DNA of 64,000 nucleotides from Candidatus Nealsonbacteria bacterium. GTDB taxonomy: Bacteria; Patescibacteriota; Minisyncoccia; Minisyncoccales; CAZKCU01. Below, piece by piece: positions 372 through 57,657 of this stretch. Both the position numbers and the translations under genes were made by a program. Position 1 is the first letter of the stretch. Every line of letters starts with the position of its first letter. The stretch spans positions 573,307-637,306 of the forward strand of contig CP179888.1 in NCBI GenBank assembly GCA_047456305.1. The letters run 5' to 3'. The notes under the pieces were generated by a model. That model was given only the letters and a program-made list of their open reading frames with translations. It did not search any database and was not told the origin of the DNA.

Positions 372-472
372 AATTGTTGACTTTTTCTAAAAATTGTGAT
401 ATGGTCTAAAGAGGTAAGTCGATGAAAAAATTTCATCTCTATCTTCGTTTTTACTGTGTAAAAACTCGATAA

Positions 473-4583: not shown

Positions 4584-5603
4584 ATGATTCATATCCCGGT
4601 TTTACAAAAAGAAGTGCTCAAATATCTTGATCCTAAACCTAATCAGAATTTTATTGATTGTACAATTGGTGAAGCCGGCCATACTTTAGCAATTTGTTCG
4701 CCCTTGGCGAAGAAATCTCTAGCTGAGCTGAACATTTTAGAAAAAATACTGCCTCATGGAAAAGTACTTGGTATTGATTGGAGTTCCGAACTAATAAAAA
4801 GTTTAGAGTTTAAAGTTAAAAGTTTAAAGTTGAGTCGGAGACTCATCCTTGTTTGTGATAATTTTGCCAATTTAAAAGAGATTGTTGAAAGAGAGAAATT
4901 TAGGCCGATTCAAGGAATTCTATTTGACTTAGGAATGTCAAGCTGGCATTTAGAAAAGTCAGGCAGAGGATTCAGTTTTTTGAGAAAAGAGCCTCTAGAT
5001 ATGAGATACAATTCTCAGAATGCTTTAACGGCAGAAAAAATAGTGAATTATTGGTCAGAGTCAGAGATAGAAAAAATTCTAAGAGAATACGGAGAAGAGA
5101 GGTTTTCCGGGAAAATTGCCAAGGAAATTGTTAAGGAGAGAAAAGCAAAGCCAATCAAAAACACATCTCAGTTGATAGAACTTTTGAAAAGAGCAATTCC
5201 TTTCAGATATCAGCATCGGAAAATCCATTTTGCAACTAAAACCTTTCAGGCCCTAAGGATTGCCGTAAATGAAGAATTGAAAAATCTAAAAGAAGTTTTA
5301 CCTCAAGCTTTAGAGATTTTAAAGCCAGGGGGGAGAATAGTTGTAATCTCTTTCCATTCTTTAGAAGACAGAATCGTCAAAAATTTCTTTAGAAACCGAG
5401 CTTCCGGAGGAAGCGAATCGAAGAACATTCGTTCTTCTCTACCCTTCGCTGCGGCTCGGGTAGATGAAGAAGAGGACAAAGTCCTCTTCGCCAATCAAAG
5501 ATTTAAAATTTTAACTAAAAAACCAATCAGACCAAAAGAAGAAGAAATTAAAATTAATCCTCGTTCAAGGTCGGCAAAGTTAAGAGCAATATTAAAAACA
5601 TAG
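4584..5603 (+). CDS. rsmH: 16S rRNA (cytosine1402-N4)-methyltransferase RsmH, with in-frame repeat insertions
   Basis: MIHIPVLQKEVL, DCTIGEAGH, FDLGMSS, FHSLEDRIVK. ATG 4584 is preferred over the 4539 ORF-track start. Confidence 0.9.
   Translation: MIHIPVLQKEVLKYLDPKPNQNFIDCTIGEAGHTLAICSPLAKKSLAELNILEKILPHGKVLGIDWSSELIKSLEFKVKSLKLSRRLILVCDNFANLKEIVEREKFRPIQGILFDLGMSSWHLEKSGRGFSFLRKEPLDMRYNSQNALTAEKIVNYWSESEIEKILREYGEERFSGKIAKEIVKERKAKPIKNTSQLIELLKRAIPFRYQHRKIHFATKTFQALRIAVNEELKNLKEVLPQALEILKPGGRIVVISFHSLEDRIVKNFFRNRASGGSESKNIRSSLPFAAARVDEEEDKVLFANQRFKILTKKPIRPKEEEIKINPRSRSAKLRAILKT
4688..4739. repeat. Dispersed 52-nt repeat, in-frame copy inside rsmH
   Basis: Matches 291-342. Encodes ...AICSPLAKKSLAELNIL..., inserted after the GH motif. 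Confidence 0.8.
5396..5492 (-). repeat. Two tandem GC-rich palindromic elements (GGCGAAGAGGAC...CGGCTCGG family), in-frame in rsmH
   Basis: The reverse complement matches 55195-55243 and 56641-56690. Encodes RASGGSESKNIRSSLPFAAARVDEEEDKVLFA. Confidence 0.8.
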
Positions 5604-7716: not shown

Positions 7717-8436
7717 ATGTTTAATTTTTTATCTAAACTTATCTTTTTCTGGAAAAAGCCAAAAATTATAATTATTACTGGTCAAGGAAAAGATTGTGCC
7801 GCTAAAGCTATTTTTCAGGTTTTAAGACAGCATTTTAAAATCGGGAGATTAACGAATTTTCCCCATTCCTTGAATTTTGGGCAAATTTTAAGTAAAGAAA
7901 TTCTAATTTTTGAGCCAAAAATAGAAAAGGCAGAAAATTTTAAATTTTTGATTAAGACATCTCAGCTGCCAATTTTGCTTGTGACCCATATTGGAGATAT
8001 TCCTTTTGATAAAGATTTCTTTGCCGGTGATAAGGAAAAAACCAAAGAAATTCGAAAATTAGCAAGAATTTTACCTTCCCAAGGTTATTTAATTTTAAAT
8101 TTTGATGACGAAACAGTCAGAGAAATCAAAGACGAGACTAATTTAAAAGACTACAACCCGCCTACCATCCTCCCGCCAAGGCGGGCCCCTATAACCTTTG
8201 GCTTTCAAGAAAGAGCTGATTTTAGAGCCTCAGATATAAGGTTAAACAATGGAACGAATTTTAAAATAAACTATAAAGGAAATATTGTTCCAATTTGGCT
8301 AGAGAAACTTTTTGGCAAAGAGCAAATTTACGCCAGTCTATCTGCTATAAGTATAGGAGTAATATTCGATTTAAATTTGGTTGAAATTTCCCAGTTATTA
8401 AAAAATTATCAGGGAATTGCTGGCAATAAGGAATGA
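7717..8436 (+). CDS. Degenerate Mur-ligase-like protein (MurF-type central domain only)
   Basis: 239 aa. ITGQGKDCA replaces the TGxNGKT P-loop. LVTHIGD and LILNFDDE resemble MurF motifs. No N- or C-terminal domains. Confidence 0.5.
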   Translation: MFNFLSKLIFFWKKPKIIIITGQGKDCAAKAIFQVLRQHFKIGRLTNFPHSLNFGQILSKEILIFEPKIEKAENFKFLIKTSQLPILLVTHIGDIPFDKDFFAGDKEKTKEIRKLARILPSQGYLILNFDDETVREIKDETNLKDYNPPTILPPRRAPITFGFQERADFRASDIRLNNGTNFKINYKGNIVPIWLEKLFGKEQIYASLSAISIGVIFDLNLVEISQLLKNYQGIAGNKE

Positions 8437-32956: not shown

Positions 32957-32973
32957 GGTTTAAATTTTCGTAA

Positions 32974-33002
32974 TCGCCAAGATAGCGGTTTTTTGGTAGA
33001 AT
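32974..33002 (+). promoter_or_regulatory. Junction element family 2
   Basis: TCGCCAAGATAGCGGTTTTTTGGTAGAAT; ATG 33010 lies 7 nt after the -10. Confidence 0.6.
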
Positions 33003-33009
33003 AGAAAAT

Positions 33010-35163: not shown

Positions 35164-35297
35164 TAAAACTCACAAAATCGATAGCTCAAAATACTTTTTA
35201 GACAACTGCCAGTAGGTTCTAATAGTGTTCAATCCTTGCAGTTAATGAATTTCAAAAAAAGTTGCCGAGAAGAAATTTTTTTGGTAAGATAGAATAT

Positions 35298-36011
35298 ATG
35301 AAATTAGTCAATAAAACAGCTTTAATAACTGGTGGCTCAAAAGGAATTGGAAGGGCTATTGCTCAAATGTTTATTAAAGAAGGAGCAAAAGTTATAGTTT
35401 TTGACATTGAAAAACCAGATTACGAAGTGGAATTTTATCAAGTTGATACAGGCAAAGAAGAACAAATAGGAAAGGCGTTTGGTCAGATTAAACAATTAGA
35501 TATCCTTGTAAATAATGCTGGAGTATATTTTCAGGCATCTGTAGAAGAAACCTCAAAAGAGCAATTGGATAAAATTGTGGATATAAATTTAAAAGGAACA
35601 TATCTAATGTCAAAATACGCAATTCCCATAATCAGGAAAACCAAGGGCAATATTATCAATATTTCATCAGGATTAGGGGTTGTTCCTGAGCCAGAATCTC
35701 CTGCCTATTGTTCAACAAAAGCAGCGATAATAATGCTTACAAAATGTATGGCTCAAGAATACGCGTCAGAGGGATTAAGGATAAATGCGATATTACCAGG
35801 ACCAATAGATACTCCATTATTAAGAAATGCTTTTTCTTCAGAAAAGGAAATTGAAGAATATGCAAAATTAAATCCTATGAAGAGGATTGGGAGACCGGAA
35901 GATGTTGCAAGTATAGCAGTTTTTTTAGCTTCAGATGAAGCAAGCTACGTCACTGGTGGACTATATTCAGTCGATGGTGGAGAGTCTACTTCCAGTGTTT
36001 ATTCAAAATAA
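35298..36011 (+). CDS. Short-chain dehydrogenase/reductase (FabG-like)
   Basis: TGGSKGIGRAIA, NNAG, YCSTKAA. ATG 35298 follows a TGGTAAGAT box. Confidence 0.85.
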   Translation: MKLVNKTALITGGSKGIGRAIAQMFIKEGAKVIVFDIEKPDYEVEFYQVDTGKEEQIGKAFGQIKQLDILVNNAGVYFQASVEETSKEQLDKIVDINLKGTYLMSKYAIPIIRKTKGNIINISSGLGVVPEPESPAYCSTKAAIIMLTKCMAQEYASEGLRINAILPGPIDTPLLRNAFSSEKEIEEYAKLNPMKRIGRPEDVASIAVFLASDEASYVTGGLYSVDGGESTSSVYSK

Positions 36012-36027
36012 GTCGCCGTAAGGAAAA

Positions 36028-36056
36028 TCGCCAATCAGGCGTTTTTTTGGTAGAAT
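36028..36056 (+). promoter_or_regulatory. Junction element family 2
   Basis: TCGCCAATCAGGCGTTTTTTTGGTAGAAT; ATG 36063 lies 6 nt after the -10. Confidence 0.6.
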
Positions 36057-36062
36057 AGGAAT

Positions 36063-36704
36063 ATGAATAATAATTTTAACTCAGAAAATTTAGGTAAAAT
36101 TTTTGATTTTTTACATAAAGTAGGAAAGTTAAAATTAACTTTCAGATTTAGTGAGGTAAAAAACATGCCTAAAGATTTAAAAGACTCAAGTGCTGCGCAT
36201 TCGTGGAGATTGGTCTTAATGGTATTTATAATAGCTGATGAATTAAATTTGGATATAAATATAGAGCACGCCTTAGAGATTGCTATTATTCACGATATTG
36301 TAGAAGCAATTACAGGAGATATAGACCAAGTTTTAATTTTTGATGGTAAGGTATCAAAAGAAGAAAAACAAAGAAATGAAAAAGAAGCGATGAAAAAACT
36401 TAAAGAAAGCCTACCTTTAAAACTCGGAAATAAAGTATCTAATTTATGGAATGAATATGAGGGAAGCTCTACAAAAGAAGCGAAATTTGTAAAAGCGCTT
36501 GATAAATTAGAAACATTAACTCATTTAATTGAAACTGGTTATAAAACCTATGATAGACCAGAATTTATAGTCAAATATGCCGATAAAACAGTTAAAAATT
36601 TCCCCGAATTAACGGGTGTGTTAAAAATAATCAAAAAGAAGCTAAAAGCAGAATTTGATAAGGGCAATATTCCATGGAAAGAAGAATATGATTGTTTAGA
36701 TTAA
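36063..36704 (+). CDS. HD-domain phosphohydrolase (YfbR-like 5'-nucleotidase type)
   Basis: AAHSWRL...AIIHDIVEAITGDI (H...HD...D). Confidence 0.75.
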   Translation: MNNNFNSENLGKIFDFLHKVGKLKLTFRFSEVKNMPKDLKDSSAAHSWRLVLMVFIIADELNLDINIEHALEIAIIHDIVEAITGDIDQVLIFDGKVSKEEKQRNEKEAMKKLKESLPLKLGNKVSNLWNEYEGSSTKEAKFVKALDKLETLTHLIETGYKTYDRPEFIVKYADKTVKNFPELTGVLKIIKKKLKAEFDKGNIPWKEEYDCLD

Positions 36705-36718
36705 TAAACTGCCAAAAA

Positions 36719-36747
36719 TCGCCAAAAAGGCGGTTTTTTGATAGAAT
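36719..36747 (+). promoter_or_regulatory. Junction element family 2
   Basis: TCGCCAAAAAGGCGGTTTTTTGATAGAAT; ATG 36754 lies 6 nt after the -10. Confidence 0.6.
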
Positions 36748-36753
36748 AGAATA

Positions 36754-38931
36754 ATGAATCTAAAAGACCAACGAACTAATTGGAAATATATTTTAATTGT
36801 AGTTATTTTAACTTTTCTTGGAATAACAGTTTTAGCTCAAGAAGCCGAACTTCCATCACCAGGACTTACCCCCGATAGTCCATTTTATTTCTTAGATACT
36901 TTAGCAGAGAAAATAGGGATGTTCTTTACTTTGGGTGCTGAGAAGAAAGCCGAGAAAGCTGTACGATATGCCGAAGAGAAATTAGCTGAGCTTAAGGCAA
37001 TGGCGGAGAAGAATAAAATTCAAGCCCTAGAGAGAGCTAACCAGAAATATCAAGAATTTCTGAGATTGGCTAATATGAAAACCCAGGAAGCCAAAGAGAA
37101 AGGAAAAGACGTAGAAGAGTTAGCAGTTTTAATTACTGAAAAAACTCTAAAACATCAAGAAGTATTAATAGAAATATTTGAGAAGGTTCCAGAAGAAGCT
37201 AAAGAGGGAATCCAAAAAGCAATTGAAGTTTCAAGAAGTGGTTCAGAAGAAGCTGTCCAGGCAGTAACTGGAGTAAAGAAAGAAGAATTACTACAAAAAA
37301 TAGAAGAAGTAAAAATAAAGGCAGAGGAAAGGATAAAGCTCGAACAATTACTTGCAGAAACTGCTGATTGGAATATATACAATAACCATATTTTTGGATA
37401 TAAAATTAAATATCCAGACGATATATTTGCTATAATTCCGACCTCATTTTCAGATAATAAAAACACCCTCTTTGAAATCGTTCCTCAAGCAGCCGTGACT
37501 ATCCAGATTGGTCAAAATCCGGAAAGATTATCTGTAATAGATTGGATTGAACAAACCCCCGATGATATTTCATTTTTTATCAGAAAATATAAGGATACCA
37601 TAGAAACGATAAACATTAATGAGAAAGAGTGTGCCCGGGTCATTTCTGTTACTCAATCACAAGGACGCCCAATGGAGCAATGGGTACACACTGTAATACC
37701 GTTTGAAACAAGAATGGTTGTTATTTCAAAAGTTGAGGAAGATAAAAGCTATAACCTTGAACAAGTTTACCAGAAGATGTTGCCTACCTTTGAATTTGTA
37801 GAATTAGAAGAAGCTGAGGAAGCTCCAAAGGTTGAAGAGAAGCCATATATTAAGGTAATTTCTCCCAATGGAGGCGAAGAATGGAAAGTAGGGAGTACTT
37901 ACAATATCACTTGGGCATCAGAAGACGTAGAAAAAGTTAATATTTTTCTTCTGGGATGCAAAACAAAAGAGTGCCCTGTGGAGTCAGGAATTTCTTCGTA
38001 TAAAATTTATCCTCATTCGCTAGACGCTGAAGCAGGAAAACATTCTTGGACTATTTATTCAAAAGACATTGGATTTGGATTCGGGTTTGGTATTTCTGAA
38101 TATGTCTGCTTTAAAATAAAAATCGAAGAAGCTTCCTCGGAGTCAGTAGGAATTTTAGACAATTTTCTTTCAATGTTAGCTTATATTGCTAATAAGCTGG
38201 GAATTCAAACTTCTGATTTAGTTAAAGATGTAAGCGACGAGTGTTTTAGAATTATTGAAGTAGCATTACCCGAGGAAGAGAAGGAAAAAGAAGAAGCTTG
38301 TCCTTTGCCTGAGACTCCTGTTTTAACAGGTCCGGGAATTTCTGTTAATAATAATGAACCTTATACCTTGAATTGGACAAGTGTTGAGGGTGCAACGGGG
38401 TATTGGTATCAAAGTGGATATGGTGCTCCAGTTTTCGACGCGCCTGCTGTGTATACTAACTTAAATAGTATTACACACACTCAACACCTCGGGACTTCTG
38501 TTACTTTTTATTATCGAGTAAAAGCCTGTAATGATTGTGGATGTAGTGTTTGGAGTAATATAGTAGATATCCAAGTTATTGTTGCTCCATTCATTAGGAT
38601 TACTTCTCCTAACGGAGGTGAGAGGTGGGTAGTGGGTCAGACTTACAATATCGAGTGGCAATCTTACAGGCTTGAAAAAGTTACCATTGACTTATTTGCT
38701 TATAACGCCGAGGGTCAGGTAATAAAAGGATTCCAGTATTTTATTGCTGAGTCTATTGATGCAACAAGGGGTTATTACAATTGGACTATTCCAGAAATTG
38801 CAGATTACCCTAATTATAAATTAAGGATATACAATAAGTTATGCATAGGAGGAGATGCAGATTTATTAGCAGAATGTTTGAAAGATCGATATTTCGATGA
38901 AAGCGATGGTTATTTTAGTATTGTAGAATAA
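36754..38931 (+). CDS. Large secreted/surface protein (DUF5667-like N-domain, repeated beta-domains)
   Basis: Signal/TM, PGLTPDSPFYFLDTLAEKI, ETADWNIYNN..GYKIKYP, two ISPNGGE.W.VG.TYNI.W modules, FN3-like segment. Confidence 0.7.
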   Translation: MNLKDQRTNWKYILIVVILTFLGITVLAQEAELPSPGLTPDSPFYFLDTLAEKIGMFFTLGAEKKAEKAVRYAEEKLAELKAMAEKNKIQALERANQKYQEFLRLANMKTQEAKEKGKDVEELAVLITEKTLKHQEVLIEIFEKVPEEAKEGIQKAIEVSRSGSEEAVQAVTGVKKEELLQKIEEVKIKAEERIKLEQLLAETADWNIYNNHIFGYKIKYPDDIFAIIPTSFSDNKNTLFEIVPQAAVTIQIGQNPERLSVIDWIEQTPDDISFFIRKYKDTIETININEKECARVISVTQSQGRPMEQWVHTVIPFETRMVVISKVEEDKSYNLEQVYQKMLPTFEFVELEEAEEAPKVEEKPYIKVISPNGGEEWKVGSTYNITWASEDVEKVNIFLLGCKTKECPVESGISSYKIYPHSLDAEAGKHSWTIYSKDIGFGFGFGISEYVCFKIKIEEASSESVGILDNFLSMLAYIANKLGIQTSDLVKDVSDECFRIIEVALPEEEKEKEEACPLPETPVLTGPGISVNNNEPYTLNWTSVEGATGYWYQSGYGAPVFDAPAVYTNLNSITHTQHLGTSVTFYYRVKACNDCGCSVWSNIVDIQVIVAPFIRITSPNGGERWVVGQTYNIEWQSYRLEKVTIDLFAYNAEGQVIKGFQYFIAESIDATRGYYNWTIPEIADYPNYKLRIYNKLCIGGDADLLAECLKDRYFDESDGYFSIVE

Positions 38932-42161: not shown

Positions 42162-42191
42162 GACACCCCTTAAGGTCCCCAAATTTGTTCC

Positions 42192-42237
42192 TAAAATCCA
42201 GGTTCGAGACCAGGGATGCCAGCACCAGTCAGCGCAG
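42192..42237 (+). repeat. Direct repeat with tRNA T-arm-like core (left copy)
   Basis: TAAAATCCAGGTTCGAGACCAGGGATGCCAGCACC...AGCGCAG, about 85-90% identical to 42796-42841. Confidence 0.75.
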
Positions 42238-42711: not shown

Positions 42712-42795
42712 TTAAAATTTTATCTCATTTTAGCTTAAAAATGCCCCGACCGAGGCGGGTCGATGGAATACTGCCAAAAGCCCCGAAATCCCTCT

Positions 42796-42841
42796 TAAAA
42801 TCCAGGTTCGAGACCGGGGATGCCAGCAACCCTGAGCGCAG
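42796..42841 (+). repeat. Direct repeat with tRNA T-arm-like core (right copy)
   Basis: TAAAATCCAGGTTCGAGACCGGGGATGCCAGCAACC...AGCGCAG. Confidence 0.75.
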
Positions 42842-43434: not shown

Positions 43435-43460
43435 GAATTGCTGAATTGCTGTTACCGGAA

Positions 43461-43489
43461 TCGCCAAGATGGCGGTTTTTTGATAGAAT
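43461..43489 (+). promoter_or_regulatory. Junction element family 2
   Basis: TCGCCAAGATGGCGGTTTTTTGATAGAAT, identical to the 32630 copy. ATG 43496 lies 6 nt after the -10. Confidence 0.6.
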
Positions 43490-43495
43490 GAAATA

Positions 43496-43636
43496 ATGAA
43501 AGAAGAAATTATGAAAAAAAAGCCGCCGAGAAAAATTAAAAATATAAAATCAACGAAAAAGTCAAAATCTATTTGTCGGTTTTGGAATTTGGCAGCTCGG
43601 TTGGAACACAGAAGAATTAAGAGTAAGAAAAGATAA
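43496..43636 (+). CDS. Possible 46-aa highly basic peptide
   Basis: Own translation MKEEIMKKKPPRKIKNIKSTKKSKSICRFWNLAARLEHRRIKSKKR. Supported only by its position after the junction promoter. Confidence 0.25.
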   Translation: MKEEIMKKKPPRKIKNIKSTKKSKSICRFWNLAARLEHRRIKSKKR

Positions 43637-51557: not shown

Positions 51558-51603
51558 ATTATCTCAAGGCGATGAAAACATTGTTTTCATCTTCACGCTT
51601 CGC

Positions 51604-52623
51604 TTACGCTCGCGTAATTAAATTTAAATCTTCCCCGCATTTGGGGCATAGACCCTGTTTATCGTAGCGCGAAATTGTATAGCCAGTTCTGTCAATTACC
51701 AAAGCATTACATTTGGGACAGAAAGTGTCTTCAGACGGTAATCCTGGAATATTACCTGTATAAACATATTTTAAGCCAGCTTTTTTTCCAATATTATAAG
51801 CTTTTTCTAAAGTTTCAACTGACGTATCAGAGAGATATTGGAGCTTCCAGGAAATTGCTCCACAAAATTGACTGATATGCCAAGGAGTTTCGGGGCCCAA
51901 TTCTTCTTTTATAAACTTGGCGATTTTTTTAAAGTTTTCTTCGGAATCATTTAAGGTTGGGATAATTAAAGTTGTTATTTCCAACCAAATTTTTTTCTGC
52001 TTTACTCTTTTCAAGGTATCTAAAACAGGTTGGAGCCGACCGCCAGAATATTTAATATAAAATTCATCAGTAAAACCTTTTAAATCAATATTAGCTGCAT
52101 CCAAATAAGAAGAAATTAAATCGAAAAGTTCTTTTGACCAAAACCCGTTGCTCACCCAGTTATTTTTTAAGCCTGCTTTTTTGGCTAATTTCATAGTATC
52201 AAAAGCATATTCGGAAAAGACACCAGGTTCGGTATAGGTATAAGAAATACTAGGTAATTTGTTTTTCAAAGCCATTTGGACAATTTCTCTTGGTGGCAAA
52301 TCTTCACCTAAAACTGGTCTGTCTGGCTTTGGCGCTTGAGAGATATCCCAATTTTGGCATGACTTGCAAGTGAAATTACAGCCGACAGTGGCAATAGAAA
52401 GAGATTGGCTTCCGGGTAAAAAATGGAAAAATGGCTTCTTTTCAATCGGATCAATATTTAAAGCAACAGCTTTACCATAGACTAAAGAATAAAGTTTACC
52501 TGCTTTGTTTCCCCTTACTCCGCAAATCCCTCTTTTACCATTTTCAATAATACAGAAATGAGCACAATTTCGGCACTGGACTTTTTTCTCAGAAAGTTTT
52601 TTATATAAATAAGCTTCTTTCAT
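51604..52623 (-). CDS. AmmeMemoRadiSam-type radical SAM enzyme
   Basis: GCNFTCKSCQNW (CxxxCxxC), N-terminal CRNCAHFC cluster, C-terminal CPKC...CPKC. Confidence 0.8.
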   Translation of the reverse strand: MKEAYLYKKLSEKKVQCRNCAHFCIIENGKRGICGVRGNKAGKLYSLVYGKAVALNIDPIEKKPFFHFLPGSQSLSIATVGCNFTCKSCQNWDISQAPKPDRPVLGEDLPPREIVQMALKNKLPSISYTYTEPGVFSEYAFDTMKLAKKAGLKNNWVSNGFWSKELFDLISSYLDAANIDLKGFTDEFYIKYSGGRLQPVLDTLKRVKQKKIWLEITTLIIPTLNDSEENFKKIAKFIKEELGPETPWHISQFCGAISWKLQYLSDTSVETLEKAYNIGKKAGLKYVYTGNIPGLPSEDTFCPKCNALVIDRTGYTISRYDKQGLCPKCGEDLNLITRA

Positions 52624-52663
52624 ACTTCAATTTTAAATCTTTTTATGATAAAATTCAATTGAT

Positions 52664-53341
52664 ATGAGACATCGGACTTTTATTGCCATAAATCTGCCGG
52701 AAGAAATAAAAAAGAAACTTTCAGAATATGAGGGAAAATGGCCAGAGCTTCCTATAAGATGGACAAAGGAAGAGAATCTCCATATTACTTTAATTTTTCT
52801 TGGTTATCTTTCAGACGAAGAACTTTTGGAAATTTGTAAAATTACCAAAGAAGTGGCCTCAAGAAATCAATCTTTTTCAATAAATTTAAATAAAATTTGT
52901 TATGGCCCTAGGACGGGGCCTCCCGCTACGCGGGAAGGCCTCGCGTCCCGACCCAAAAAGATGTTGCCACGGTCAATGAGCCCTTCGGGCTCATTTCCCC
53001 GTTCGTCCCACTTCTCAATTGAGAGTAGGACTCCGAGGATGATTTGGGTTAATGGAGAAAAATCTCGAGAATTTACTGCTTTAAAAGATGATATAGAAAA
53101 ATCTTTAGGTACTTCAGAAAGAGTAAGTTTTTCTCCGGAAAAGCGAGTTTTCTCGCCTCATATCACTCTGGGGAGAATCAGAGCCTGGGAATTTCGCCAA
53201 ATTGAACCTGAAGAAAGGCCAGAAGTTGATGAAGATATTGACTTAAGTTTTGAAGTAAGTTCAATTGAAGCTATGGAAAGCCAACTAAAAAGAGGAGGAC
53301 CTAATTACACGGTGCTGGAATCAGCACCGTTAAAATCCTAG
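52664..53341 (+). CDS. thpR: RNA 2',3'-cyclic phosphodiesterase / 2'-5' RNA ligase family (2H), carrying a ~45-aa insert
   Basis: Two HxT motifs: HITLIFLG and HITLGRI. Confidence 0.75.
   Translation: MRHRTFIAINLPEEIKKKLSEYEGKWPELPIRWTKEENLHITLIFLGYLSDEELLEICKITKEVASRNQSFSINLNKICYGPRTGPPATREGLASRPKKMLPRSMSPSGSFPRSSHFSIESRTPRMIWVNGEKSREFTALKDDIEKSLGTSERVSFSPEKRVFSPHITLGRIRAWEFRQIEPEERPEVDEDIDLSFEVSSIEAMESQLKRGGPNYTVLESAPLKS
52906..53036. repeat. ~131-nt GC-rich composite palindromic element, in-frame in thpR
   Basis: GGACGGGGCCTCCCGC-tac-GCGGGAAGGCCTCGCGTCC and GAGCCC-ttc-GGGCTC hairpins. Encodes RTGPPATREGLASRPKKMLPRSMSPSGSFPRSSHFSIESRTPR. Confidence 0.75.
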
Positions 53342-53353
53342 TTTCTAAACAAA

Positions 53354-54766
53354 ATGAAGATACATTTTATTGGCATTGGGGGAATTGGTGTTTCCGCCCT
53401 TGCCAAATATTACCTAGAAAAGGGGCACAAAATTAGTGGTTCTGATTTAGTTTCTTCTGAAATTACTGAAGCCCTTAAAAAATTAGGAGCTAAAATTTAT
53501 ATTGGCAAACATAAAGCCAAAAATTTACCAAAAGATACTGATTTGGTAATTCATAGTCTGGCAGTACAACCAAACAACCCCGAACTTATTGGTGGACATC
53601 GGATGTCCACCATATTGAGTTATCCTCAGGCTTTGGGAGAACTGACAAAACAATACTTTACTATCGCTGTTTCTGGAACTCATGGGAAAAGCACAACGAC
53701 AGCGATGATTGGTTTAATTTTAATTAAAGCCGGATTAGACCCTACGGTAATTGTTGGAACAAAACTTAAGGAATTCGGGAATTCCAATTGCAGAGTAGGG
53801 AAGGGTAAATATTTAGTGATTGAGGCTGATGAGTGGCAAGCCTCCTTTTTAAATTATTGGCCCAAAATTATTGTCTTAACTAATATTGAAAAAGAACACT
53901 TAGATTTTTATAAAAATCTAAATCATATTTTAAAAACTTATAAAAAATACATTGGACATTTGCCCAAAGACGGAGTAGTGGTGGCAAATAGTGACGACTT
54001 CAACACCCGAAAAATTATTAAAGATCGCATCTCCAAAGGAGATCCAATTTCCTTATATTGGTTAAATCAAAGAGGAACAAAAAAACTCAAGAAAATTTTG
54101 AAAATTCTTGGAGAGTATAATGTTTATAATGCTTTGGCAGCCTTGACTATTGCTAGAGTTTTAAAAATTCCAGATAAAATCTCTCTCAATGCCCTTTCAA
54201 AATATAAGGGTTCCTGGCGTCGCTTCGAAGAAAAAACTATTAAGCTAAAAGCTAAAAGCTGTAAGCTGATAAGCGATTATGCTCATCACCCGACCGAGAT
54301 AAAAAAGACATTAGAAGCAGCCCGGGAGAAATTCCCGCGAAAAAAAATCTGGTGCATTTTTCAGCCCCATCAATATCAAAGAACTTTTTATTTATTTGAT
54401 GATTTCGTTAAAGTATTCTCAAAAACCCTTCGACAAGCTCAGGGTAAACCTCTTATTGACAAACTAATAATCACTGATATTTATGATGTAGTTGGTAGAG
54501 AAAATAAAAAAATAAAGAAAAAAATAAGCGCAAGAAAACTAATTAAAGCAATTAACAAACCTCAGGCAATTTATGTTTCCACAATTAAAAAAGCAGCTGA
54601 TTATTTAAAGAAAAATCTTCAGGGTAGGGAAGTGGTAATAATTATGGGAGCAGGAGATATTTATAAATTGGGTGAACAATTGAACAATTTTAAATACCCG
54701 AGCCGCAGGCGAAGGGTGAAGAAGAGGACGAAGTCCTCTTCGCCTAGCTTTTATCTATCCACTTGA
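53354..54766 (+). CDS. murC: UDP-N-acetylmuramate--L-alanine ligase
   Basis: IGIGGIGVSALA, GTHGKSTT P-loop. The C-terminal ~25 aa are read from a repeat element. Confidence 0.85.
   Translation: MKIHFIGIGGIGVSALAKYYLEKGHKISGSDLVSSEITEALKKLGAKIYIGKHKAKNLPKDTDLVIHSLAVQPNNPELIGGHRMSTILSYPQALGELTKQYFTIAVSGTHGKSTTTAMIGLILIKAGLDPTVIVGTKLKEFGNSNCRVGKGKYLVIEADEWQASFLNYWPKIIVLTNIEKEHLDFYKNLNHILKTYKKYIGHLPKDGVVVANSDDFNTRKIIKDRISKGDPISLYWLNQRGTKKLKKILKILGEYNVYNALAALTIARVLKIPDKISLNALSKYKGSWRRFEEKTIKLKAKSCKLISDYAHHPTEIKKTLEAAREKFPRKKIWCIFQPHQYQRTFYLFDDFVKVFSKTLRQAQGKPLIDKLIITDIYDVVGRENKKIKKKISARKLIKAINKPQAIYVSTIKKAADYLKKNLQGREVVIIMGAGDIYKLGEQLNNFKYPSRRRRVKKRTKSSSPSFYLST
54697..54744 (-). repeat. GGCGAAGAGGAC...CGGCTCGG palindromic element forming the murC 3' end
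   Basis: The reverse complement GGCGAAGAGGACTTCGTCCTCTTCTTCACCCTTCGCCTGCGGCTCGGG matches 55195-55243. Confidence 0.8.
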
Positions 54767-54936
54767 CAAAGGAAAGGTAAAAAGAGAAAATAAAATAAGA
54801 AGTTTTCTTCTTTAAAAGGTCGCAACAATTAAGACCAAATAGCCAATTCCCAATAACCAATAAAAATAGTACTTAGAGTTTAGAGAATTGGGATTCGATT
54901 AAAAATTGGTGCTTGGGATTGGAATTTTTAACTATT

Positions 54937-55056
54937 ATGACTCTTTTTTGGATAATCGTAGCTATCGTGGTAGTAGGATTAATAATCTGGTTTTTAAAAG
55001 GGAAAAAGAAAAAAGGACCCGGAATTTCAGCACCATCGGGAGGCCCGACAGTTTAA
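54937..55056 (+). CDS. Possible 39-aa single-TM peptide
   Basis: Own translation MTLFWIIVAIVVVGLIIWFLKGKKKKGPGISAPSGGPTV, followed by a terminator. Confidence 0.3.
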   Translation: MTLFWIIVAIVVVGLIIWFLKGKKKKGPGISAPSGGPTV

Positions 55057-55091
55057 ATTCTCAATTCAGAAAGAAAAATTAAAATAAAAAG

Positions 55092-55126
55092 CAGGGGCTG
55101 TTTTAATAGTCCCTGTTTTATTTTTG
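55092..55126 (+). terminator. Rho-independent terminator
   Basis: CAGGGG-ctgttttaatag-TCCCTG followed by TTTTATTTTT. Confidence 0.5.
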
Positions 55127-55194
55127 TAACCAATTGATTCCGGGCGTCTTTTCAAATAATAGAAAATTTACTATAATTAATATAACATAACTTA

Positions 55195-55243
55195 GGCGAA
55201 GAGAACTTTGTTCTCTTCTTCACCCTTCACCTGCGGCTCGGGT
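55195..55243 (+). repeat. GGCGAAGAG...CGGCTCGGG palindromic element abutting the aspS start
   Basis: GAAGAGAAC-ttt-GTTCTCTTC hairpin then TTCACCCTTCACCTGCGGCTCGGGT; the ATG follows immediately. Confidence 0.8.
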
Positions 55244-56644
55244 ATGAAAAGAATTTTAAACAAGCAAACACCTAATTATCTCGGGAAATCAGTCAAGGTC
55301 TGCGGTTGGGTTAAAACTATAAGGTCTCATGGTAAGATTATTTTTATTGATCTTCGCGACAGAAGCGGGATTTTGCAATTAGTCTTTACTCCAGGGACTT
55401 CTTCTTTGTATGCAAGGGCTCAACAATTGAGGCCAGAGTGGGTGATTGCCGCTGTTGGTAAAATCAAAGAAAGACCAAAAGAAATGATAAATCCTAAATT
55501 GGAAACTGGCAAAATAGAACTTCAGCCAGAAAAATTAGAAATTTTTTCTGAGGCAAAAACTCTGCCTTTTTCTATTGATACTCCAGGCTATGAAATAACA
55601 GAAGAAAAGAGGCTAAAATACAGGTATCTTGATTTGAGAAGAGAAAGGATGAGAAAAAATTTACAATGGCGCCAGAAAGTTATTCAGTTTATGAGAGATT
55701 TTCTCCAGAAAGAAGGATTTATAGAAGTGGAAACGCCAATTTTAACCAAATCAACGCCAGAGGGAGCCAGGGATTTCTTGGTTCCATCAAGATTGCAACC
55801 TGGTAAATTTTACGCTCTTCCCCAATCGCCCCAGCAATATAAACAATTATTAATGGTTGCTGGAATAGAAAAATACTTTCAAATAGCCAGATGTTTAAGA
55901 GACGAGGACCCGAGGGCAGATAGACAGGCAGAGCATACCCAATTAGATATTGAAATGGCATTTACTTACCAGGAAGAGATTTTAGATTTAGTTGAGAGAT
56001 TATATGTAGCTTTAACTAAGAAATTATTTCCCGAAAAGAAAATTACTAAAATTCCCTTCCCCAGAATTTCTTATAAAGAGGCGATTAAAAAATACAATTC
56101 TGATAAACCCGATCTACGAAAAAATAAAAAAATTTCAGATGAACTTGCCTTTTGCTTTATTGTTGATTTCCCAATGTTTGAATGGCATAAAAAGGAAAAA
56201 AGGTGGGGAGCAATGCATCATCCTTTTACCAAACCCCAAACCGAGAATATCTCTGAGATTAAAAAGCATCCAGAAAGAATTTTGGCCTACCAATATGACT
56301 TTGTTTTAAACGGCTGTGAAATTGGCGGCGGCAGTCTAAGAACCACTAATTTAGATGTATTAACCGCCGTCTTTGAGGTTTTGGGTCATAAAAAGCAGGA
56401 GATTAGAAAACTGTTTAGTAATTATTTTGAAGCATTTAGTTATGGAGTTCCGCCTCATGGCGGGATTGCTCCAGGTATTGATAGATTTTTGGCCGTTCTC
56501 TTGAAAGAACCCAATATTCGAGAAGTAATGGCTTTCCCTAAAACCGGAGACAACCGAGACCTAATGATGGGTGTTCCGGCCAAAGTAACTGAGAAACAAC
56601 TAAAAGAATTGCATATTAAGATAATAAAACCTAAAGGGCGATGA
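55244..56644 (+). CDS. aspS: Aspartate--tRNA ligase, bacterial-type core lacking the GAD insertion domain
   Basis: OB N-domain; motif 2 CLRDEDPRADRQAEHTQLD; SDKPDLR directly followed by VDFPMFEW...AMHHPFT; motif 3 GGIAPGIDRF. Confidence 0.9.
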   Translation: MKRILNKQTPNYLGKSVKVCGWVKTIRSHGKIIFIDLRDRSGILQLVFTPGTSSLYARAQQLRPEWVIAAVGKIKERPKEMINPKLETGKIELQPEKLEIFSEAKTLPFSIDTPGYEITEEKRLKYRYLDLRRERMRKNLQWRQKVIQFMRDFLQKEGFIEVETPILTKSTPEGARDFLVPSRLQPGKFYALPQSPQQYKQLLMVAGIEKYFQIARCLRDEDPRADRQAEHTQLDIEMAFTYQEEILDLVERLYVALTKKLFPEKKITKIPFPRISYKEAIKKYNSDKPDLRKNKKISDELAFCFIVDFPMFEWHKKEKRWGAMHHPFTKPQTENISEIKKHPERILAYQYDFVLNGCEIGGGSLRTTNLDVLTAVFEVLGHKKQEIRKLFSNYFEAFSYGVPPHGGIAPGIDRFLAVLLKEPNIREVMAFPKTGDNRDLMMGVPAKVTEKQLKELHIKIIKPKGR

Positions 56645-56690
56645 GGACTTTATCCTCATCTTCACCTTCGCTTCCTTCGGAAGCTCGGTA
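56641..56690 (+). repeat. Palindromic element (TTCGCTTCCTTCGGAAGCTCGG subfamily) between aspS and the carboxypeptidase gene
   Basis: ATGAGGAC-ttt-ATCCTCAT hairpin overlaps the aspS stop. Matches the reverse complement of 5396-5440. Confidence 0.75.
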
Positions 56691-56691
56691 A

Positions 56692-57657
56692 ATGAGTAGG
56701 AATCTTAAATTTTTTTTAGTAACTCTTATTTTAAGCTTGCCTTTTTGGTGGGGGATAAATGTTTTAGAAGAAAGATTGGAAAATTTTTTTTATTGGCGAG
56801 AATTAAGTCAAAATGCTCAAATTTTCACTGCTCAAATAAGACTTGAAGAGAAATTAAACGAATTAAAACCTATTCGTCATAGAAATGTGAAAGATTTAGA
56901 GTTAAAAGCAACATCAGTAATTTCAGTTTTCTTAGATAATAAGGGTAAAGAAAAAATTCTTTTTGAAAAAGAAAGTGACAAAATTTTACCGATTGCAAGT
57001 TTAACTAAATTGATGACAGCAAATGTTGTTTTAGAAAACTACGACCTTTCAAAAAAAATTAAAATTTCTGAAAAAGCAGTGGAACAACCAGAAGATCTCG
57101 GAAAATTAGTAGCTGAAAGAATCTTCCCGGTGGAATATCTTCTTTATCCATTACTAATGGAATCAAGTAATGATGCGGCTTTTTCCCTGGCTAATGATTA
57201 TGATGGCATGACAATAGAAAAATTCGTTGCATTGATGAATTCCACGGCTCAAAAGTTAAATCTTAACGATACTTTTTTTGTAAATTCTAGCGGCCTCGAC
57301 CCGGAAGAAAATAAACCTAAAACTAAGATAAATTATTCAACTACAAGCGACTTAGCAAAACTCACTAAAGAATTATTAAAAAAACCCTTAATTTGGGAAA
57401 TTCTCTCTACTCCAAAATATGACTCCTATGGCCCAAAGCTTGTAAATACTAATGAACTTTTAGGAGAAATTCCGGGAATAGTTGGAGGGAAAACCGGCTA
57501 TACCTATGCGGCCGAGGGCTGCATAATTTTGGTGACAATCGCTCCAAAAGACAGTGGTTATTTAGTAAATGTAATTTTAGGAGCAGACGGACAAAACGGC
57601 AGATTTGGCGAAATGGAAAAATTAGTAAATTGGGTTAATATAGCTTATAAGTGGTAA
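56692..57657 (+). CDS. D-alanyl-D-alanine carboxypeptidase (S11, PBP5/6-like)
   Basis: SLTK (SxxK), SSN (SxN), KTGYT (KTG); N-terminal TM. Confidence 0.75.
   Translation: MSRNLKFFLVTLILSLPFWWGINVLEERLENFFYWRELSQNAQIFTAQIRLEEKLNELKPIRHRNVKDLELKATSVISVFLDNKGKEKILFEKESDKILPIASLTKLMTANVVLENYDLSKKIKISEKAVEQPEDLGKLVAERIFPVEYLLYPLLMESSNDAAFSLANDYDGMTIEKFVALMNSTAQKLNLNDTFFVNSSGLDPEENKPKTKINYSTTSDLAKLTKELLKKPLIWEILSTPKYDSYGPKLVNTNELLGEIPGIVGGKTGYTYAAEGCIILVTIAPKDSGYLVNVILGADGQNGRFGEMEKLVNWVNIAYKW

What the first reader, a model, noticed from the sequence alone, without database searches (positions are those of the whole stretch)
52906..53036. ~131-nt GC-rich composite hairpin element inserted in-frame between the two HxT motifs of the 2H phosphoesterase ThpR
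A sharply GC-rich block interrupts an AT-rich gene and adds ~45 Pro/Arg/Ser-rich residues without a stop. It contains two strong hairpins: an imperfect ~16-bp stem at 52911-52948 and GAGCCC-ttc-GGGCTC at 52978-52992. It is too short for an intein and has no recognisable intron core. It could be a large member of the palindromic element class, or an RNA-level element such as a protein-binding or excised segment.
Basis: seen in the sequence. Interest (0 to 1): 0.55.

Follow-up and report, generated by a model that had tools for sequence, protein, structure and literature searches.

The report
Two mobile hairpin repeats inside thpR
The GC-rich block inside this RNA-repair gene is two small, unrelated palindromic repeat elements that landed side by side in a loop-coding stretch and are most likely translated as a floppy 36-residue surface loop, much like the palindromic elements known from Rickettsia genes.

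Summary
A 63-70% GC block sits in-frame in a 2H phosphoesterase (ThpR/LigT) gene of a 34% GC Patescibacteria-like genome, and it contains the most stable hairpin in the 64 kb window.

It is not one 131-nt element. It is two independent insertions separated by 15 native bases:
- **Element A:** 42 nt, 52910-52951, one 16-bp hairpin.
- **Element B:** 66 nt plus a 6-nt flanking repeat, 52967-53038, three helices.

A strain 92-97% identical lacks exactly these 108 nt. Two independent assemblies carry both elements.

A is a dispersed repeat. The same 42-mer lies in-frame in DinB and RpoA, in inverted orientation in SecA, and in an intergenic spacer, all in related metagenome contigs.

B is a divergent member of a bipartite hairpin family. 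That family has about 7 further copies in this window and about 20 in related loci, mostly intergenic. The B stems keep pairing through compensatory changes while the encoded amino acids change.

AlphaFold gives a disordered loop that replaces a 5-residue turn. At least six different hairpin inserts occupy the same ~10 codons in other ThpR orthologues.

Verdict: selfish hairpin repeats inserted in-frame, which work like Rickettsia palindromic elements or REPs. They are new families in a new phylum. The mobilising enzyme is unknown, and excision at the RNA level is unlikely but untested.

The parts
52664..53341 (+). thpR/ligT-like 2H phosphoesterase gene (225 aa), host of both insertions; HxT motifs at 52781-52789 and 53159-53167
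   Evidence: ORF. Pfam LigT_PEase 73 bits over residues 10-85, and 2_5_RNA_ligase2 over 120-205. 1732 homologues, typically 187-192 aa. H40, T42, H166 and T168 are invariant.
52910..52951 (+). Element A: 42-nt GC-rich (76%) imperfect palindrome AGGACGGGGCCTCCCGCTACGCGGGAAGGCCTCGCGTCCCGA. It has a 16-bp stem with three 3'-arm bulges (52911-52948) and a TAC loop. It is inserted between the two Pro codons of YGP|PKKM and read as RTGPPATREGLASR.
   Evidence: Absent from the 97%-identical allele P0002/L008. Covariance model R1 scores it 73.5 bits. The same 42-mer is found in DinB, RpoA, SecA (inverted) and an intergenic spacer. Most stable hairpin in the window.
52952..52966 (+). Native spacer between the two elements: CCCAAAAAGATGTTG = P K K M L. 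The empty allele has CCTAAAAAGATGCCA.
   Evidence: Alignment of filled and empty alleles.
52967..53038 (-). Element B: a 66-nt insertion (52973-53038, SMSPSGSFPRSSHFSIESRTPR) plus the 6-nt flanking repeat CCACGG...CCGAGG. Three helices: a 9-bp hairpin at 52975-52995, an 11-bp bulged hairpin at 53005-53031, and a 5-bp closing helix pairing 52997-53001 with 53034-53038. The pairing fits the strand antisense to thpR better.
   Evidence: Absent from P0002 and P0003. Present at the same site in P0001, P0006, P0024, P0053 and P0078. Covariation: 6 pairs with double changes, 0/500 shuffles; 89.3% of cells paired on +, 97.3% on -. Models R2 and R3 score it 98.8 and 89.4 bits on the - strand.
53039..53041 (+). 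Invariant Met126 codon (ATG), directly abutted by element B in the same way that B-family copies elsewhere abut start codons.
   Evidence: M126 is invariant in alignment A1. ATG adjacency is seen in 12 of 30 family copies against 1.1% of random positions.
56632..56691 (-). B-family copy filling the aspS / next-gene spacer. It overlaps the aspS stop codon and abuts the ATG at 56692.
   Evidence: R2 34.6 bits, R3 59.2 bits. Sequence and fold. A copy sits at the same place in L004 17101-17160.
55190..55244 (-). B-family copy directly upstream of the aspS start codon (ATG 55244-55246, sharing base 55244 with the element). It is the inverted partner of 54695-54749.
   Evidence: R3 47.4 bits. 58-nt arms, 90% complementary (I1). 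Sequence.
54695..54749 (+). B-family copy at the 3' end of murC; with the bases that follow it, it accounts for the 24-codon C-terminal extension and stop codon that orthologous MurC proteins lack.
   Evidence: R3 46.8 bits. MurC alignment shows a 24-residue C-terminal extension absent from orthologues.
51563..51616 (-). B-family copy in the spacer between two minus-strand genes, about 1 kb upstream of thpR. It overlaps the stop codon of the radical-SAM gene.
   Evidence: R3 36.8 bits. Sequence.
5412..5497 (.). Overlapping inverted doublet of B-family copies (5412-5462 on -, 5435-5497 on +), in-frame inside rsmH/mraW.
   Evidence: R3 23.9 and 26.3 bits. Translation. Pfam MraW 336 bits.
413..472 (-). 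B-family copy abutting the ATG of ORF 473-1471.
   Evidence: R3 38.6 bits. Flank.
8169..8190 (+). Copy of a third hairpin module, CCTCCC-stem-loop-GGGCCCCT, which directly follows element A in L016 and L019 (a close variant follows it in L017). Here it lies inside ORF 7717-8436.
   Evidence: Pattern search: 1 match against 0 in 100 shuffles. Further copies in L016, L017, L019 and L021.

Best explanation
**What it is.** The block is the product of two separate DNA-level insertions of small, non-autonomous, structure-defined repeat elements. They landed in the stretch of thpR that encodes a short surface turn (YGP-PKKM-PPRM).

- **Element A** (42 nt) is one long imperfect hairpin.
- **Element B** (66 nt plus a 6-nt flanking repeat) is a three-helix member of a bipartite hairpin family. 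That family otherwise sits mainly in intergenic spacers.

**Why the gene survives.** Both lengths are multiples of three and both are open in the frame used. The gene therefore stays intact, and the insert is simply translated as a 36-residue disordered Pro/Arg/Ser-rich loop, far from the two HxT catalytic motifs in the sequence.

**Why the stems are conserved (inferred).** The stems, not the encoded peptide, are what stays constant. I infer that the hairpin on one single strand is what the mobilising machinery recognises. That machinery would most plausibly be an HUH/Y1 transposase of the IS200/IS605-RAYT type supplied in trans.

**Shown:**
- insertion and presence/absence polymorphism;
- dispersal of both families;
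- structure conservation through compensatory changes;
- a disordered loop in the predicted structure.

**Inferred:**
- that the elements are selfish or neutral here;
- that the insert is translated;
- the type of enzyme that moves them.
For: **Insertion.**
- The allele of a 92-97% identical strain (P0002/L008) lacks exactly 108 nt, equivalent to 52910-53032. P0003 (92% amino-acid identity) lacks them too. P0001/L009 and L013 carry both elements.
- Each element occurs alone in other orthologues.

**A is dispersed.** A metagenome scan found the 42-mer in five contexts:
- ThpR of two lineages that are 69% identical;
- a Y-family polymerase, as an exact 14-residue gap against PDB 7yll, between KP and the N/D-G-L that follows (NGL here, DGL in 7yll);
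- the RpoA C-terminal tail;
- SecA, in inverted orientation and read as SGREAFPQSGRPRP;
- an intergenic spacer.

These are documented. The inner stem varies in a compensatory way: CCCGC/GCGGG becomes CCCTC/GAGGG, and there is one G.U pair.

**B belongs to a dispersed family.**
- A model built only from the ThpR copies found full-length matches elsewhere: L014 (40 bits, E 2e-7), window 56632-56691 (35 bits) and others.
- The rebuilt model R3 finds 8 credible copies in the window and 30 matches at E<=0.1 in related loci, four of them the ThpR copies themselves.
- It finds none in 128 kb of viral loci that share part of the motif, and none in three unrelated control loci.

**Structure is conserved, not the peptide.**
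- Among 5 ThpR lineages, 6 pairs carry double changes (0/500 shuffles), and sliding the partner drops pairing from 89-97% to 29-51%.
- Family-wide, 19 of 25 pairs carry double changes (that alignment is fitted to the model).

**Loop.** AlphaFold gives pLDDT <50 for residues 83-123, between strands 71-80 and 126-131, and the rest of the fold is confident. Against PDB homologues, 42 residues replace a 5-residue turn.

**Same behaviour elsewhere in this genome.** There are in-frame B-family copies in rsmH and at the murC 3' end.

**No sign of another function.** There is no Rfam family, terminator or promoter in the insert.
Against: - No transposase was seen. None turned up among the 28 window ORFs I scanned, nor among the called genes of L002, L004 and L021. 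The mobilising enzyme is therefore pure inference.
- The B subfamily as such was found only in ThpR. An exact-pattern scan of 185,579 species genomes found no true copy.
- The invariance of A's outer stem is partly an ascertainment effect, because the pattern scan required it.
- The patchy distribution on a rough ThpR tree (B: 6 carriers, 6 changes) does not say whether gains, precise losses or allele exchange dominate.
- Compensatory changes in palindromes can arise by template-switch repair without any selection.
- Translation of the insert is not shown. No transcript or peptide data are available.
Confidence: 0.8

Rival explanations
1. A selected RNA-level element specific to thpR. This could be a cis-regulatory or protective structure in the mRNA, or an antisense small RNA made from the minus strand. 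The stems would then be kept by selection on RNA function.
For: There is strong covariation in both B hairpins. The minus strand folds better (-75.6 kcal/mol, z -6.1, against -61.5, z -3.7). Twelve cells are G.U on the minus strand but A.C on the plus strand, against two the other way. B is more conserved (72-89%) than the host gene's third codon positions (46-75%).
Against: The same elements sit in unrelated genes, in both orientations, and in spacers. Strains 92-97% identical do without them. There is no Rfam hit and no promoter-like or terminator-like site in or next to the insert. At least six unrelated hairpins occupy the same loop in other orthologues, which points to tolerance or targeting rather than one function.
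Confidence: 0.1
2. The segment is removed or skipped during expression, as an unconventional intron, an intein-like element, or programmed translational bypassing between matched codons (CGG/AGG ... AGG flanking B). The mature protein would then equal the insert-free form.
For: B is flanked by near-identical hexamers (CCGAGG...CCGAGG in P0006), so a hop from the first Arg codon to the second would restore PPRM exactly. A stable hairpin starts 3-5 nt after the would-be take-off codon. GC-rich bypass elements in AT-rich yeast mitochondrial genes are a precedent (own knowledge).
Against: The insert is a multiple of three with no stop codon, so nothing forces removal. There is no stop or frame break after the take-off codon. 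A has no matched flanking codons. It is far too short for an intein, and there is no intron family match. A lies inverted yet still open in SecA, which a strand-specific mechanism would not need.
Confidence: 0.04
3. A genuine protein-level acquisition: a new functional loop in ThpR, such as a binding site or a localisation signal, selected as a peptide.
For: Similar inserts recur at the same site in several lineages, and the reading frame is always kept.
Against: AlphaFold gives pLDDT 32-42 across the insert. The amino acids change wherever the stems co-vary. Element A is read in another frame and orientation in SecA, and is non-coding in L019. Most B-family copies are intergenic. Six unrelated peptides occupy the same loop.
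Confidence: 0.03
4. Hairpins generated in place by replication or repair errors (template switching, or inverted duplication at the small CCGCGG palindrome), rather than by mobile elements.
For: The loop-coding stretch contains a 6-bp palindrome (CCGCGG). Many different hairpins arose there in different lineages. Template switching also produces apparent compensatory changes.
Against: An identical 42-mer A sits in DinB of another organism, and near-identical copies sit in RpoA, SecA and a spacer. B matches a family with shared non-stem sequence (…GAAGGKTGAAG-ATGAR…YTCAT-CGCC) at many loci.
Confidence: 0.03

Closest known systems
Rickettsia palindromic elements (RPE-1 to RPE-10)
   Same: Both are interspersed palindromic repeats found in intergenic and protein-coding regions. 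Both insert in-frame into unrelated housekeeping genes of a reduced, AT-rich genome and leave the protein functional (PMC1779305, PMC10969869). Here the hosts are ThpR, DinB, RpoA, SecA, RsmH and MurC.
   Different: RPEs are 100-150 bp and each family encodes a conserved peptide. A is 42 nt and B is 66-72 nt. They are GC-rich islands, and what they conserve is stem pairing rather than a peptide. The host phylum is Patescibacteria. No sequence relationship was tested or is expected.
REP / REPIN elements mobilised by RAYT (IS200/IS605-like HUH tyrosine transposases)
   Same: [quoted passage not shown] Inverted doublets occur here too (window 5412-5497; 54695-54749 with 55190-55244). The spacer sequence is free as long as it pairs (PMC3337134). 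Like IS200/IS605 elements, A has no target duplication and always follows CCT or CCA. There is also a strand asymmetry in G.T pairs.
   Different: REPs are by definition extragenic and number in the hundreds per genome. No RAYT or other transposase was seen in the DNA available. The conserved GTAG head of REPs (own knowledge) is absent.
Bacterial MITEs (Correia/NEMIS, ERIC, RUP, Chunjie and others)
   Same: B is within the small end of the size range. It has a 6-nt flanking repeat that can be read as a target duplication, it is non-autonomous, and it is mostly intergenic with occasional in-frame fusions (PMC10969869).
   Different: There are no clear terminal inverted repeats matching a known IS. 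A is shorter than any MITE and has no duplication. No parent IS was identified.
GC clusters of yeast mitochondrial genomes
   Same: Both are 30-60 nt GC-rich palindromic mobile clusters in a very AT-rich genome, with occasional in-frame insertion in coding genes (review PMC8811140 listed but not read; details from own knowledge).
   Different: These are a different genetic system with different families. The resemblance is analogy only.
Translational bypass elements (T4 gene 60; 'byp' elements of Magnusiomyces mitochondria)
   Same: Both are GC-rich hairpin inserts inside AT-rich coding sequence, flanked by matched codons (own knowledge).
   Different: Bypass elements break the frame or carry stop codons and must be skipped. 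A and B are open and a multiple of three.

Membership tests
Rickettsia palindromic elements (RPE) | Interspersed repeat with several copies per genome, in both intergenic and coding DNA | tested here: met
   A occurs in five different contexts in metagenome contigs. The B family has 8 copies in 64 kb, 4 of them touching coding sequence.
Rickettsia palindromic elements (RPE) | In-frame insertion that leaves the host protein intact, at a surface position | tested here: met
   The ORF is open and the HxT motifs are intact. The loop is predicted disordered, between two strands. There is an exact 14-residue gap against PDB Pol IV.
Rickettsia palindromic elements (RPE) | Length 100-150 bp with a family-specific conserved peptide | tested here: not met
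   The elements are 42 and 66-72 nt. The peptide varies while the stems co-vary. A is read in two frames or orientations.
Rickettsia palindromic elements (RPE) | Sequence homology to RPE families; Rickettsiales host | not tested
   No RPE models were available. The host is Patescibacteria, judged by the source names of the homologues.
REP/REPIN-RAYT | Short (20-40 nt) imperfect palindrome able to form a hairpin in single-stranded nucleic acid | tested here: met
   A has 16 bp with 3 bulges, -28 kcal/mol. B hairpins have 9 and 11 bp.
REP/REPIN-RAYT | Extragenic location | tested here: not met
   A lies inside ThpR, DinB, RpoA and SecA. B lies inside ThpR. Family copies lie inside rsmH and murC.
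REP/REPIN-RAYT | Cognate RAYT gene flanked by the repeats | not testable with these tools
   Only 64 kb of the genome is available. There was no transposase Pfam hit among 28 window ORFs, or in the gene tables of L002, L004 and L021.
REP/REPIN-RAYT | Inverted doublets (REPINs) | tested here: met
   Window 5412-5462(-) with 5435-5497(+), and 54695-54749(+) with 55190-55244(-), the latter with 58-nt arms 90% complementary. The ThpR copy itself is single.
MITE | Terminal inverted repeats and target-site duplication | tested here: inconclusive
   B is flanked by CCNNGG...CCGAGG. This is a perfect direct repeat in P0006 and an inverted repeat in P0078. The target itself is the palindrome CCGCGG, so the two readings cannot be separated. 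A has neither feature.
MITE | Related autonomous insertion sequence | not testable with these tools
   No IS was seen in any locus held.
Group I/II intron or intein | Catalytic RNA core or Hint/splicing motifs; size over 200 nt or over 130 aa | tested here: not met
   Rfam shows nothing but noise at E<=10. The elements are 42 and 66 nt. Pfam finds only LigT on the protein.
Translational bypass element | Frame break or stop right after a take-off codon that matches a landing codon | tested here: not met
   Matched Arg codons flank B, but the frame is open with no stop.

The most novel reading that the evidence does not exclude
Patescibacteria may carry a diverse, active population of very small GC-rich hairpin elements that home to specific short motifs. 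A inserts after CCT or CCA. The B family sits directly against an ATG, antisense to the abutted gene.

These elements would move by a single-strand, structure-reading mechanism. That could be a RAYT or IS200-like enzyme, or something not yet described. They would be a general engine of the lineage-specific loop insertions seen in proteins of this phylum.

On this reading, the ThpR turn is a natural landing pad on which at least six element families have converged. The ATG adjacency could reflect either a targeting rule or a function at translation starts.
Probability: 0.25. Interest if true: 0.65.

Novelty: new member of a known kind. Interest (0 to 1): 0.42.

Why it matters
In-frame colonisation of housekeeping genes by palindromic repeats has been treated as a curiosity of Rickettsia. 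Finding the same behaviour in an unrelated, reduced, AT-rich lineage suggests a general route by which small genomes gain protein loops. Here the elements are much smaller, and their stems are conserved through compensatory changes.

There are practical consequences:
- Such inserts inflate apparent protein novelty in metagenome-assembled genomes.
- They create strain-level presence/absence markers.
- They can be mistaken for introns, inteins or assembly errors.

The recurrent use of one 10-codon turn by six different hairpins, and the tendency of the B family to sit exactly against ATG codons, offer a handle on the unknown insertion mechanism.

Tried and rejected
- **Copies in the window.** blastn-short found no second copy of A or B in the window. 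Only the covariance models revealed the B-family relatives.
- **Exact-pattern scan for B.** The pattern AAYGAGC-N9-CTCATTTCNCCGTT gave one hit in viral contigs (L010, a DnaB-like gene with no hairpin) and one in 185,579 species genomes (L011, Bacteroidales, no hairpin). Both are chance hits.
- **Scans for A.** The strict A pattern gave 0 hits in viral contigs. One of the 8 metagenome hits (L012, GC-rich) is chance.
- **Peptide searches with the 43-aa insert.** The word-index search found no candidates (one search was a parameter error). Exhaustive phmmer against 1.84 billion representatives gave 0 hits. Both are uninformative for a short, low-complexity query.
- **B-family motif in viral contigs.** There were 14 pattern hits, and none was confirmed by model R3. 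No phage link was found, but this is a useful negative control.
- **Rfam.** The whole window at gathering thresholds, the region at E<=10, and four A-bearing loci gave only two tRNAs and noise. ARAGORN found the same two tRNAs.
- **Promoter and terminator scan of 52500-53500.** Nothing in the insert.
- **Literature.** I found no paper linking CPR or Patescibacteria with REP, MITE, or in-frame palindromic elements.
- **Rejected readings.** Intron or intein (size, no motifs); assembly chimera (three independent assemblies); a single 131-nt element (each half occurs alone elsewhere).
Full report
**1. The observation**

The window is 34.0% GC. ORF 52664-53341 (+, 225 aa) matches Pfam LigT_PEase at 73 bits and 2_5_RNA_ligase2. 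It keeps both HxT motifs: H40/T42 and H166/T168 are invariant in alignment A1.

Between the motifs, 100-nt windows reach 63% GC and 60-nt windows reach 70%. The 151 nt around the block fold better than all 200 dinucleotide shuffles on either strand: -61.5 kcal/mol (z -3.7) on the plus strand and -75.6 kcal/mol (z -6.1) on the minus strand.

In a sliding 44-nt fold of the whole window, 52907-52950 is the most stable stretch of all at -28.0 kcal/mol. 52961-53004 is also on the list. A third hairpin (53005-53031) was missed.

The block is not an assembly artefact. L009 (98.9% identical, 11 mismatches) and L013 (99.6% and 94.7% in two segments) are independent assemblies that carry it.

**2. It is an insertion, and it is two insertions**

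Of 1732 homologues, the typical length is 187-192 aa. Alignment A1 and the DNA of eight alleles give the following:

- Empty site (P0002, 97% amino-acid and 97% nucleotide identity): GGCCCT|CCTAAAAAGATG|CCACCGCGGATG.
- The window has 42 nt (element A, 52910-52951) after GGCCCT.
- Then come 15 native bases (PKKML).
- Then come 66 nt (element B), preceded and ended by CCACGG...CCGAGG.

The net gain is 108 nt, or 36 residues. BLASTN of the empty contig L008 against the window breaks exactly at 52909 and resumes at 53033. A occurs alone in P0016. B occurs alone in P0006, P0024, P0053 and P0078.

**3. Element A is a dispersed repeat**

A metagenome scan with GACGGGGCCT-N(10-18)-AGGCCTCGCGTC returned eight loci. 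One (L012) is a chance hit in GC-rich DNA. Three are the two ThpR lineages. The other four are new contexts:

- **L015:** the identical 42-mer in a Y-family polymerase. phmmer against PDB 7yll shows an exact 14-residue gap between KP and the N/D-G-L that follows (NGL here, DGL in 7yll).
- **L016:** in the C-terminal tail of RpoA.
- **L017:** in inverted orientation inside the C-terminal linker of SecA, read as SGREAFPQSGRPRP.
- **L019:** in a spacer between two genes.

In five of six contexts the left flank is CCT, and in the sixth it is CCA. There is no target duplication.

The inner stem and loop vary: CCCGC-TAC-GCGGG, CCCTC-TTC-GAGGG, CCCGT-TAT-GCGGG, and CCCGC-TTT or TTC-GCGGG. That is one fully compensatory change and one wobble. 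The outer stem was fixed by my search pattern, so its invariance carries no weight.

A is open in five of six frames. In L016 and L019 it is followed by a second module, CCTCCC-hairpin-GGGCCCCT, and in L017 by a close variant of it. A copy of that module lies in the window at 8169-8190, and exact copies occur elsewhere in L017 and in L021.

**4. Element B is a diverged member of a second family**

*Pairing within the ThpR lineages.* Among the five ThpR lineages that carry it, both hairpins keep pairing through double substitutions. GAGCCC/GGGCTC becomes GAGCGT/ACGCTC, and GTCCCACT/AGTAGGAC becomes GCCCCGCT/AGCGGGGC. In total 6 pairs have changes on both sides, and 0 of 500 shuffles reach this. 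Sliding the partner by 1-3 columns drops pairing to 29-51%.

*Strand.* Pairing is 89.3% of cells on the thpR-sense strand and 97.3% on the antisense strand. Twelve cells are G.U on the antisense strand and A.C on the sense strand, against two the other way. This amounts to roughly 8 independent events against 2. It is a modest hint that the structure is read on the antisense strand.

*Family search.* A covariance model built only from these copies (R2) found full-length matches outside ThpR. After rebuilding it with those matches (R3), I ran an unfiltered search of the window. It gave eight credible copies:

| Coordinates | Strand | R3 score (bits) |
|---|---|---|
| 52967-53038 | - | 89 |
| 56632-56691 | - | 59 |
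| 55190-55244 | - | 47 |
| 54695-54749 | + | 47 |
| 413-472 | - | 39 |
| 51563-51616 | - | 37 |
| 5435-5497 | + | 26 |
| 5412-5462 | - | 24 |

The related loci gave 30 matches at E<=0.1, four of which are the ThpR copies themselves.

*Controls.* The model found nothing in three unrelated loci that were included in the search. It also found nothing in 128 kb of viral DNA chosen because it contains part of the motif.

*Family layout.* On the canonical strand the layout is: YACCCGAGC, then a variable hairpin, then GCGAAGGGTGAAG, then ATGARNNN-loop-NNNYTCAT, then CGCC. Family-wide, 19 of 25 pairs show double changes (that alignment is fitted to the model, so this is supportive only).

*Location.* Most copies fill short spacers and overlap stop codons. 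Some are in coding sequence: a doublet in rsmH, and the copy at the murC 3' end, which with the bases after it accounts for murC's 24-codon C-terminal extension and stop codon.

*Frames and limits.* B is open only in the frame used in thpR and in two antisense frames. An exact-pattern scan for the B subfamily in 185,579 species genomes found no true copy. The ThpR subfamily itself is therefore rare.

**5. Effect on the protein**

AlphaFold2, run with alignment A1, gives a confident 2H fold (pLDDT 80-96 in most blocks). Residues 83-123, which are essentially the whole insert, score below 50. They lie between strands 71-80 and 126-131.

Against PDB 2fyh and 1vdx, query residues 4-82 align to chain residues 2-82, and query 125-219 align to chain 88-178. 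So 42 residues replace a 5-residue turn. This fits a tolerated, disordered surface loop. Translation itself is inferred, not shown.

**6. A hot spot**

Among the 120 best homologues, 25 carry an insert in the same ~10 codons (GPPKKMPPRM):

| Insert type | Carriers |
|---|---|
| A | 2 |
| B | 5 |
| C (PYSETSSLTGRLAKGENRP) | 12 |
| D (PPSSRSQTGSK) | 2 |
| Other (P0041, P0106, P0111) | 3 |
| Other (not classified by the motif search) | 1 |

P0001 carries both A and B, so the A and B rows share one protein. The counts exclude the window itself.

The DNA of types C and D and of the P0106 and P0041 inserts folds into long GC-rich hairpins as well. That makes at least six distinct hairpin inserts on this one turn.

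On a rough NJ tree every type is scattered. Counts there include the window: A has 3 carriers and 3 changes, B 6 and 6, C 12 and 10. B's divergence (72-89% identity) does not follow that of the host gene (Spearman 0.18).

I cannot tell repeated site-specific gain from repeated precise loss or from exchange of alleles. Precise loss is plausible given the flanking direct repeat.

**7. How it most likely works**

*Shown:*
- two DNA insertions;
- both elements belong to dispersed families;
- the stems are conserved through compensatory change;
- the reading frame is open;
- the predicted loop is disordered.

*Inferred:*
- The elements are selfish or neutral passengers. They survive here because their length and composition keep the frame open in a permissive turn.
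- A structure-reading single-strand transposase supplied in trans moves them.

The features pointing to a RAYT or IS200/IS605-type enzyme are:
- a hairpin with bulges;
- free spacer sequence;
- inverted doublets;
- insertion next to a fixed short motif without duplication (for A);
- strand asymmetry.

These features match published accounts of REPINs (PMC3337134). But no such gene is present in the DNA I could examine.

**8. Rivals**

- **A thpR-specific functional RNA.** Covariation and the antisense-strand bias favour this. It is hard to reconcile with copies in unrelated genes, in both orientations and in spacers, and with near-identical strains that lack the insert.
- **Removal from the mRNA, or ribosomal bypass.** This is not needed, because the frame is open. 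An orientation-specific mechanism also does not fit the inverted copy in SecA. It stays formally untested.
- **A protein-level domain.** The disordered prediction, the changing residues and the multiple reading frames argue against it.
- **In-place generation by template switching.** The dispersed identical copies refute this for A and B.
- **Assembly chimera.** Three independent assemblies refute this.

**9. Comparison and novelty**

Functionally the closest analogue is the Rickettsia palindromic element. These are interspersed palindromic repeats of 100-150 bp found in intergenic and coding DNA, often fused in-frame to unrelated genes (PMC1779305, PMC10969869). A and B fail the RPE size and conserved-peptide criteria, and they come from another phylum. 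So they work like RPEs but are not RPEs.

They also resemble REP/REPIN elements, except that they sit inside genes. By analogy they resemble yeast mitochondrial GC clusters.

I found no paper describing such elements in CPR/Patescibacteria in the library searched. I rate this as a new member of a known kind.

**10. Unexplained**

B-family copies abut, within 0-1 nt and in antisense orientation, an ATG that opens a long ORF. This holds for 12 of 30 hits (7 of 25 outside ThpR), against 1.1% of random positions.

In thpR the abutted ATG is the invariant internal Met126 codon. At 56632-56696 the element is bracketed by ATGAG...ATGAG. The first copy supplies the stop codon of aspS and the second supplies the start codon of the next gene.

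I could not resolve whether this reflects a targeting rule, a duplication, or simply what survives in very short spacers.

Noticed in passing
window 54695-54749 (+) and 55190-55244 (-), with spacer 54750-55189: An inverted pair of B-family elements (58-nt arms, 90% complementary) brackets about 440 nt. The spacer holds a 47-aa hydrophobic ORF (54913-55056) and a terminator-like hairpin (55090-55120). This looks like a REPIN- or MITE-like composite between murC and aspS.
   Followed up: partly
window 53590-53612 and about 54420-54445 (murC): A perfect palindrome GGTGGACATCGGATGTCCACC replaces about 8 conserved MurC residues (ELIGGHRMS). There is also an 8-residue RQAQGKPL insert, shared with L004 but absent from L002 and L021.
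   Followed up: partly
window 5412-5497 (rsmH/mraW, ORF 4539-5603): An overlapping inverted doublet of B-family elements lies in-frame inside the RsmH methyltransferase gene, read as ...SGGSESKNIRSSLPFAAARVDEEEDKVLFANQR...
   Followed up: partly
window 8169-8190; L016 1509-1528; L017 4670-4692; L019 6346-6368; L021 5266-5293: A third dispersed hairpin module, CCTCCC-stem-loop-GGGCCCCT. In the window it sits inside ORF 7717-8436. In L016 and L019 it directly follows element A (a close variant does so in L017). The exact-pattern copy in L017 (4670-4692) is a separate one, inserted in another ORF (4390-5001; the Nudix assignment is my reading by eye and was not checked against Pfam).
   Followed up: partly
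window 413-472, 55190-55244, 56632-56691, 52967-53038, and related loci: B-family copies in antisense orientation abut an ATG start codon at 0-1 nt far more often than chance (12 of 30 against 1.1%). In thpR they abut the internal Met126 codon.
   Followed up: partly
ThpR orthologues P0010/L021 10229-10330, P0004/L022 3229-3297, P0106/L037 304-405, P0041/L038 1238-1333: Four further, mutually unrelated GC-rich hairpin inserts occupy the same ThpR turn in other Patescibacteria. Type C occurs in 12 of the 120 best homologues.
   Followed up: partly
window 2037-2080 (ORF 1468-2175, sortase-like): A GC-rich 13-bp hairpin (-20.7 kcal/mol) lies in-frame in a sortase-domain gene, read as IPSVQGEARLDGQ. 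It may be another in-frame hairpin insert.
   Followed up: no
window 32625-32673, 32969-33017, 35257-35305, 36023-36071, 36714-36762, 43456-43504: Six copies of a 49-nt intergenic module: a hairpin, a T-run, then GATAGAATA. It looks like a terminator followed by a -10-like box, reused between genes.
   Followed up: no
window 2703-3196 (ORF 2192-3838): Three to four tandem 126-nt repeats (79-93% identical) inside a 548-aa ORF, giving a repeated 42-residue unit.
   Followed up: no
window 42177-42237 and 42781-42841: Two 61-nt GC-rich direct repeats (82% identical) contain GGTTCGAGACC, which resembles a tRNA T-arm. They lie in a 4-kb stretch of small ORFs with no Pfam match (41.9-46 kb). This could be a remnant of an integrated element.
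   Followed up: no
L013 versus window 51767-51945: The independent assembly L013 is 99.65% identical up to 51767. It then lacks about 177 nt inside the radical-SAM gene region and drops to 94.7% identity. This suggests a recombination breakpoint or strain mosaic just upstream of thpR.
   Followed up: no
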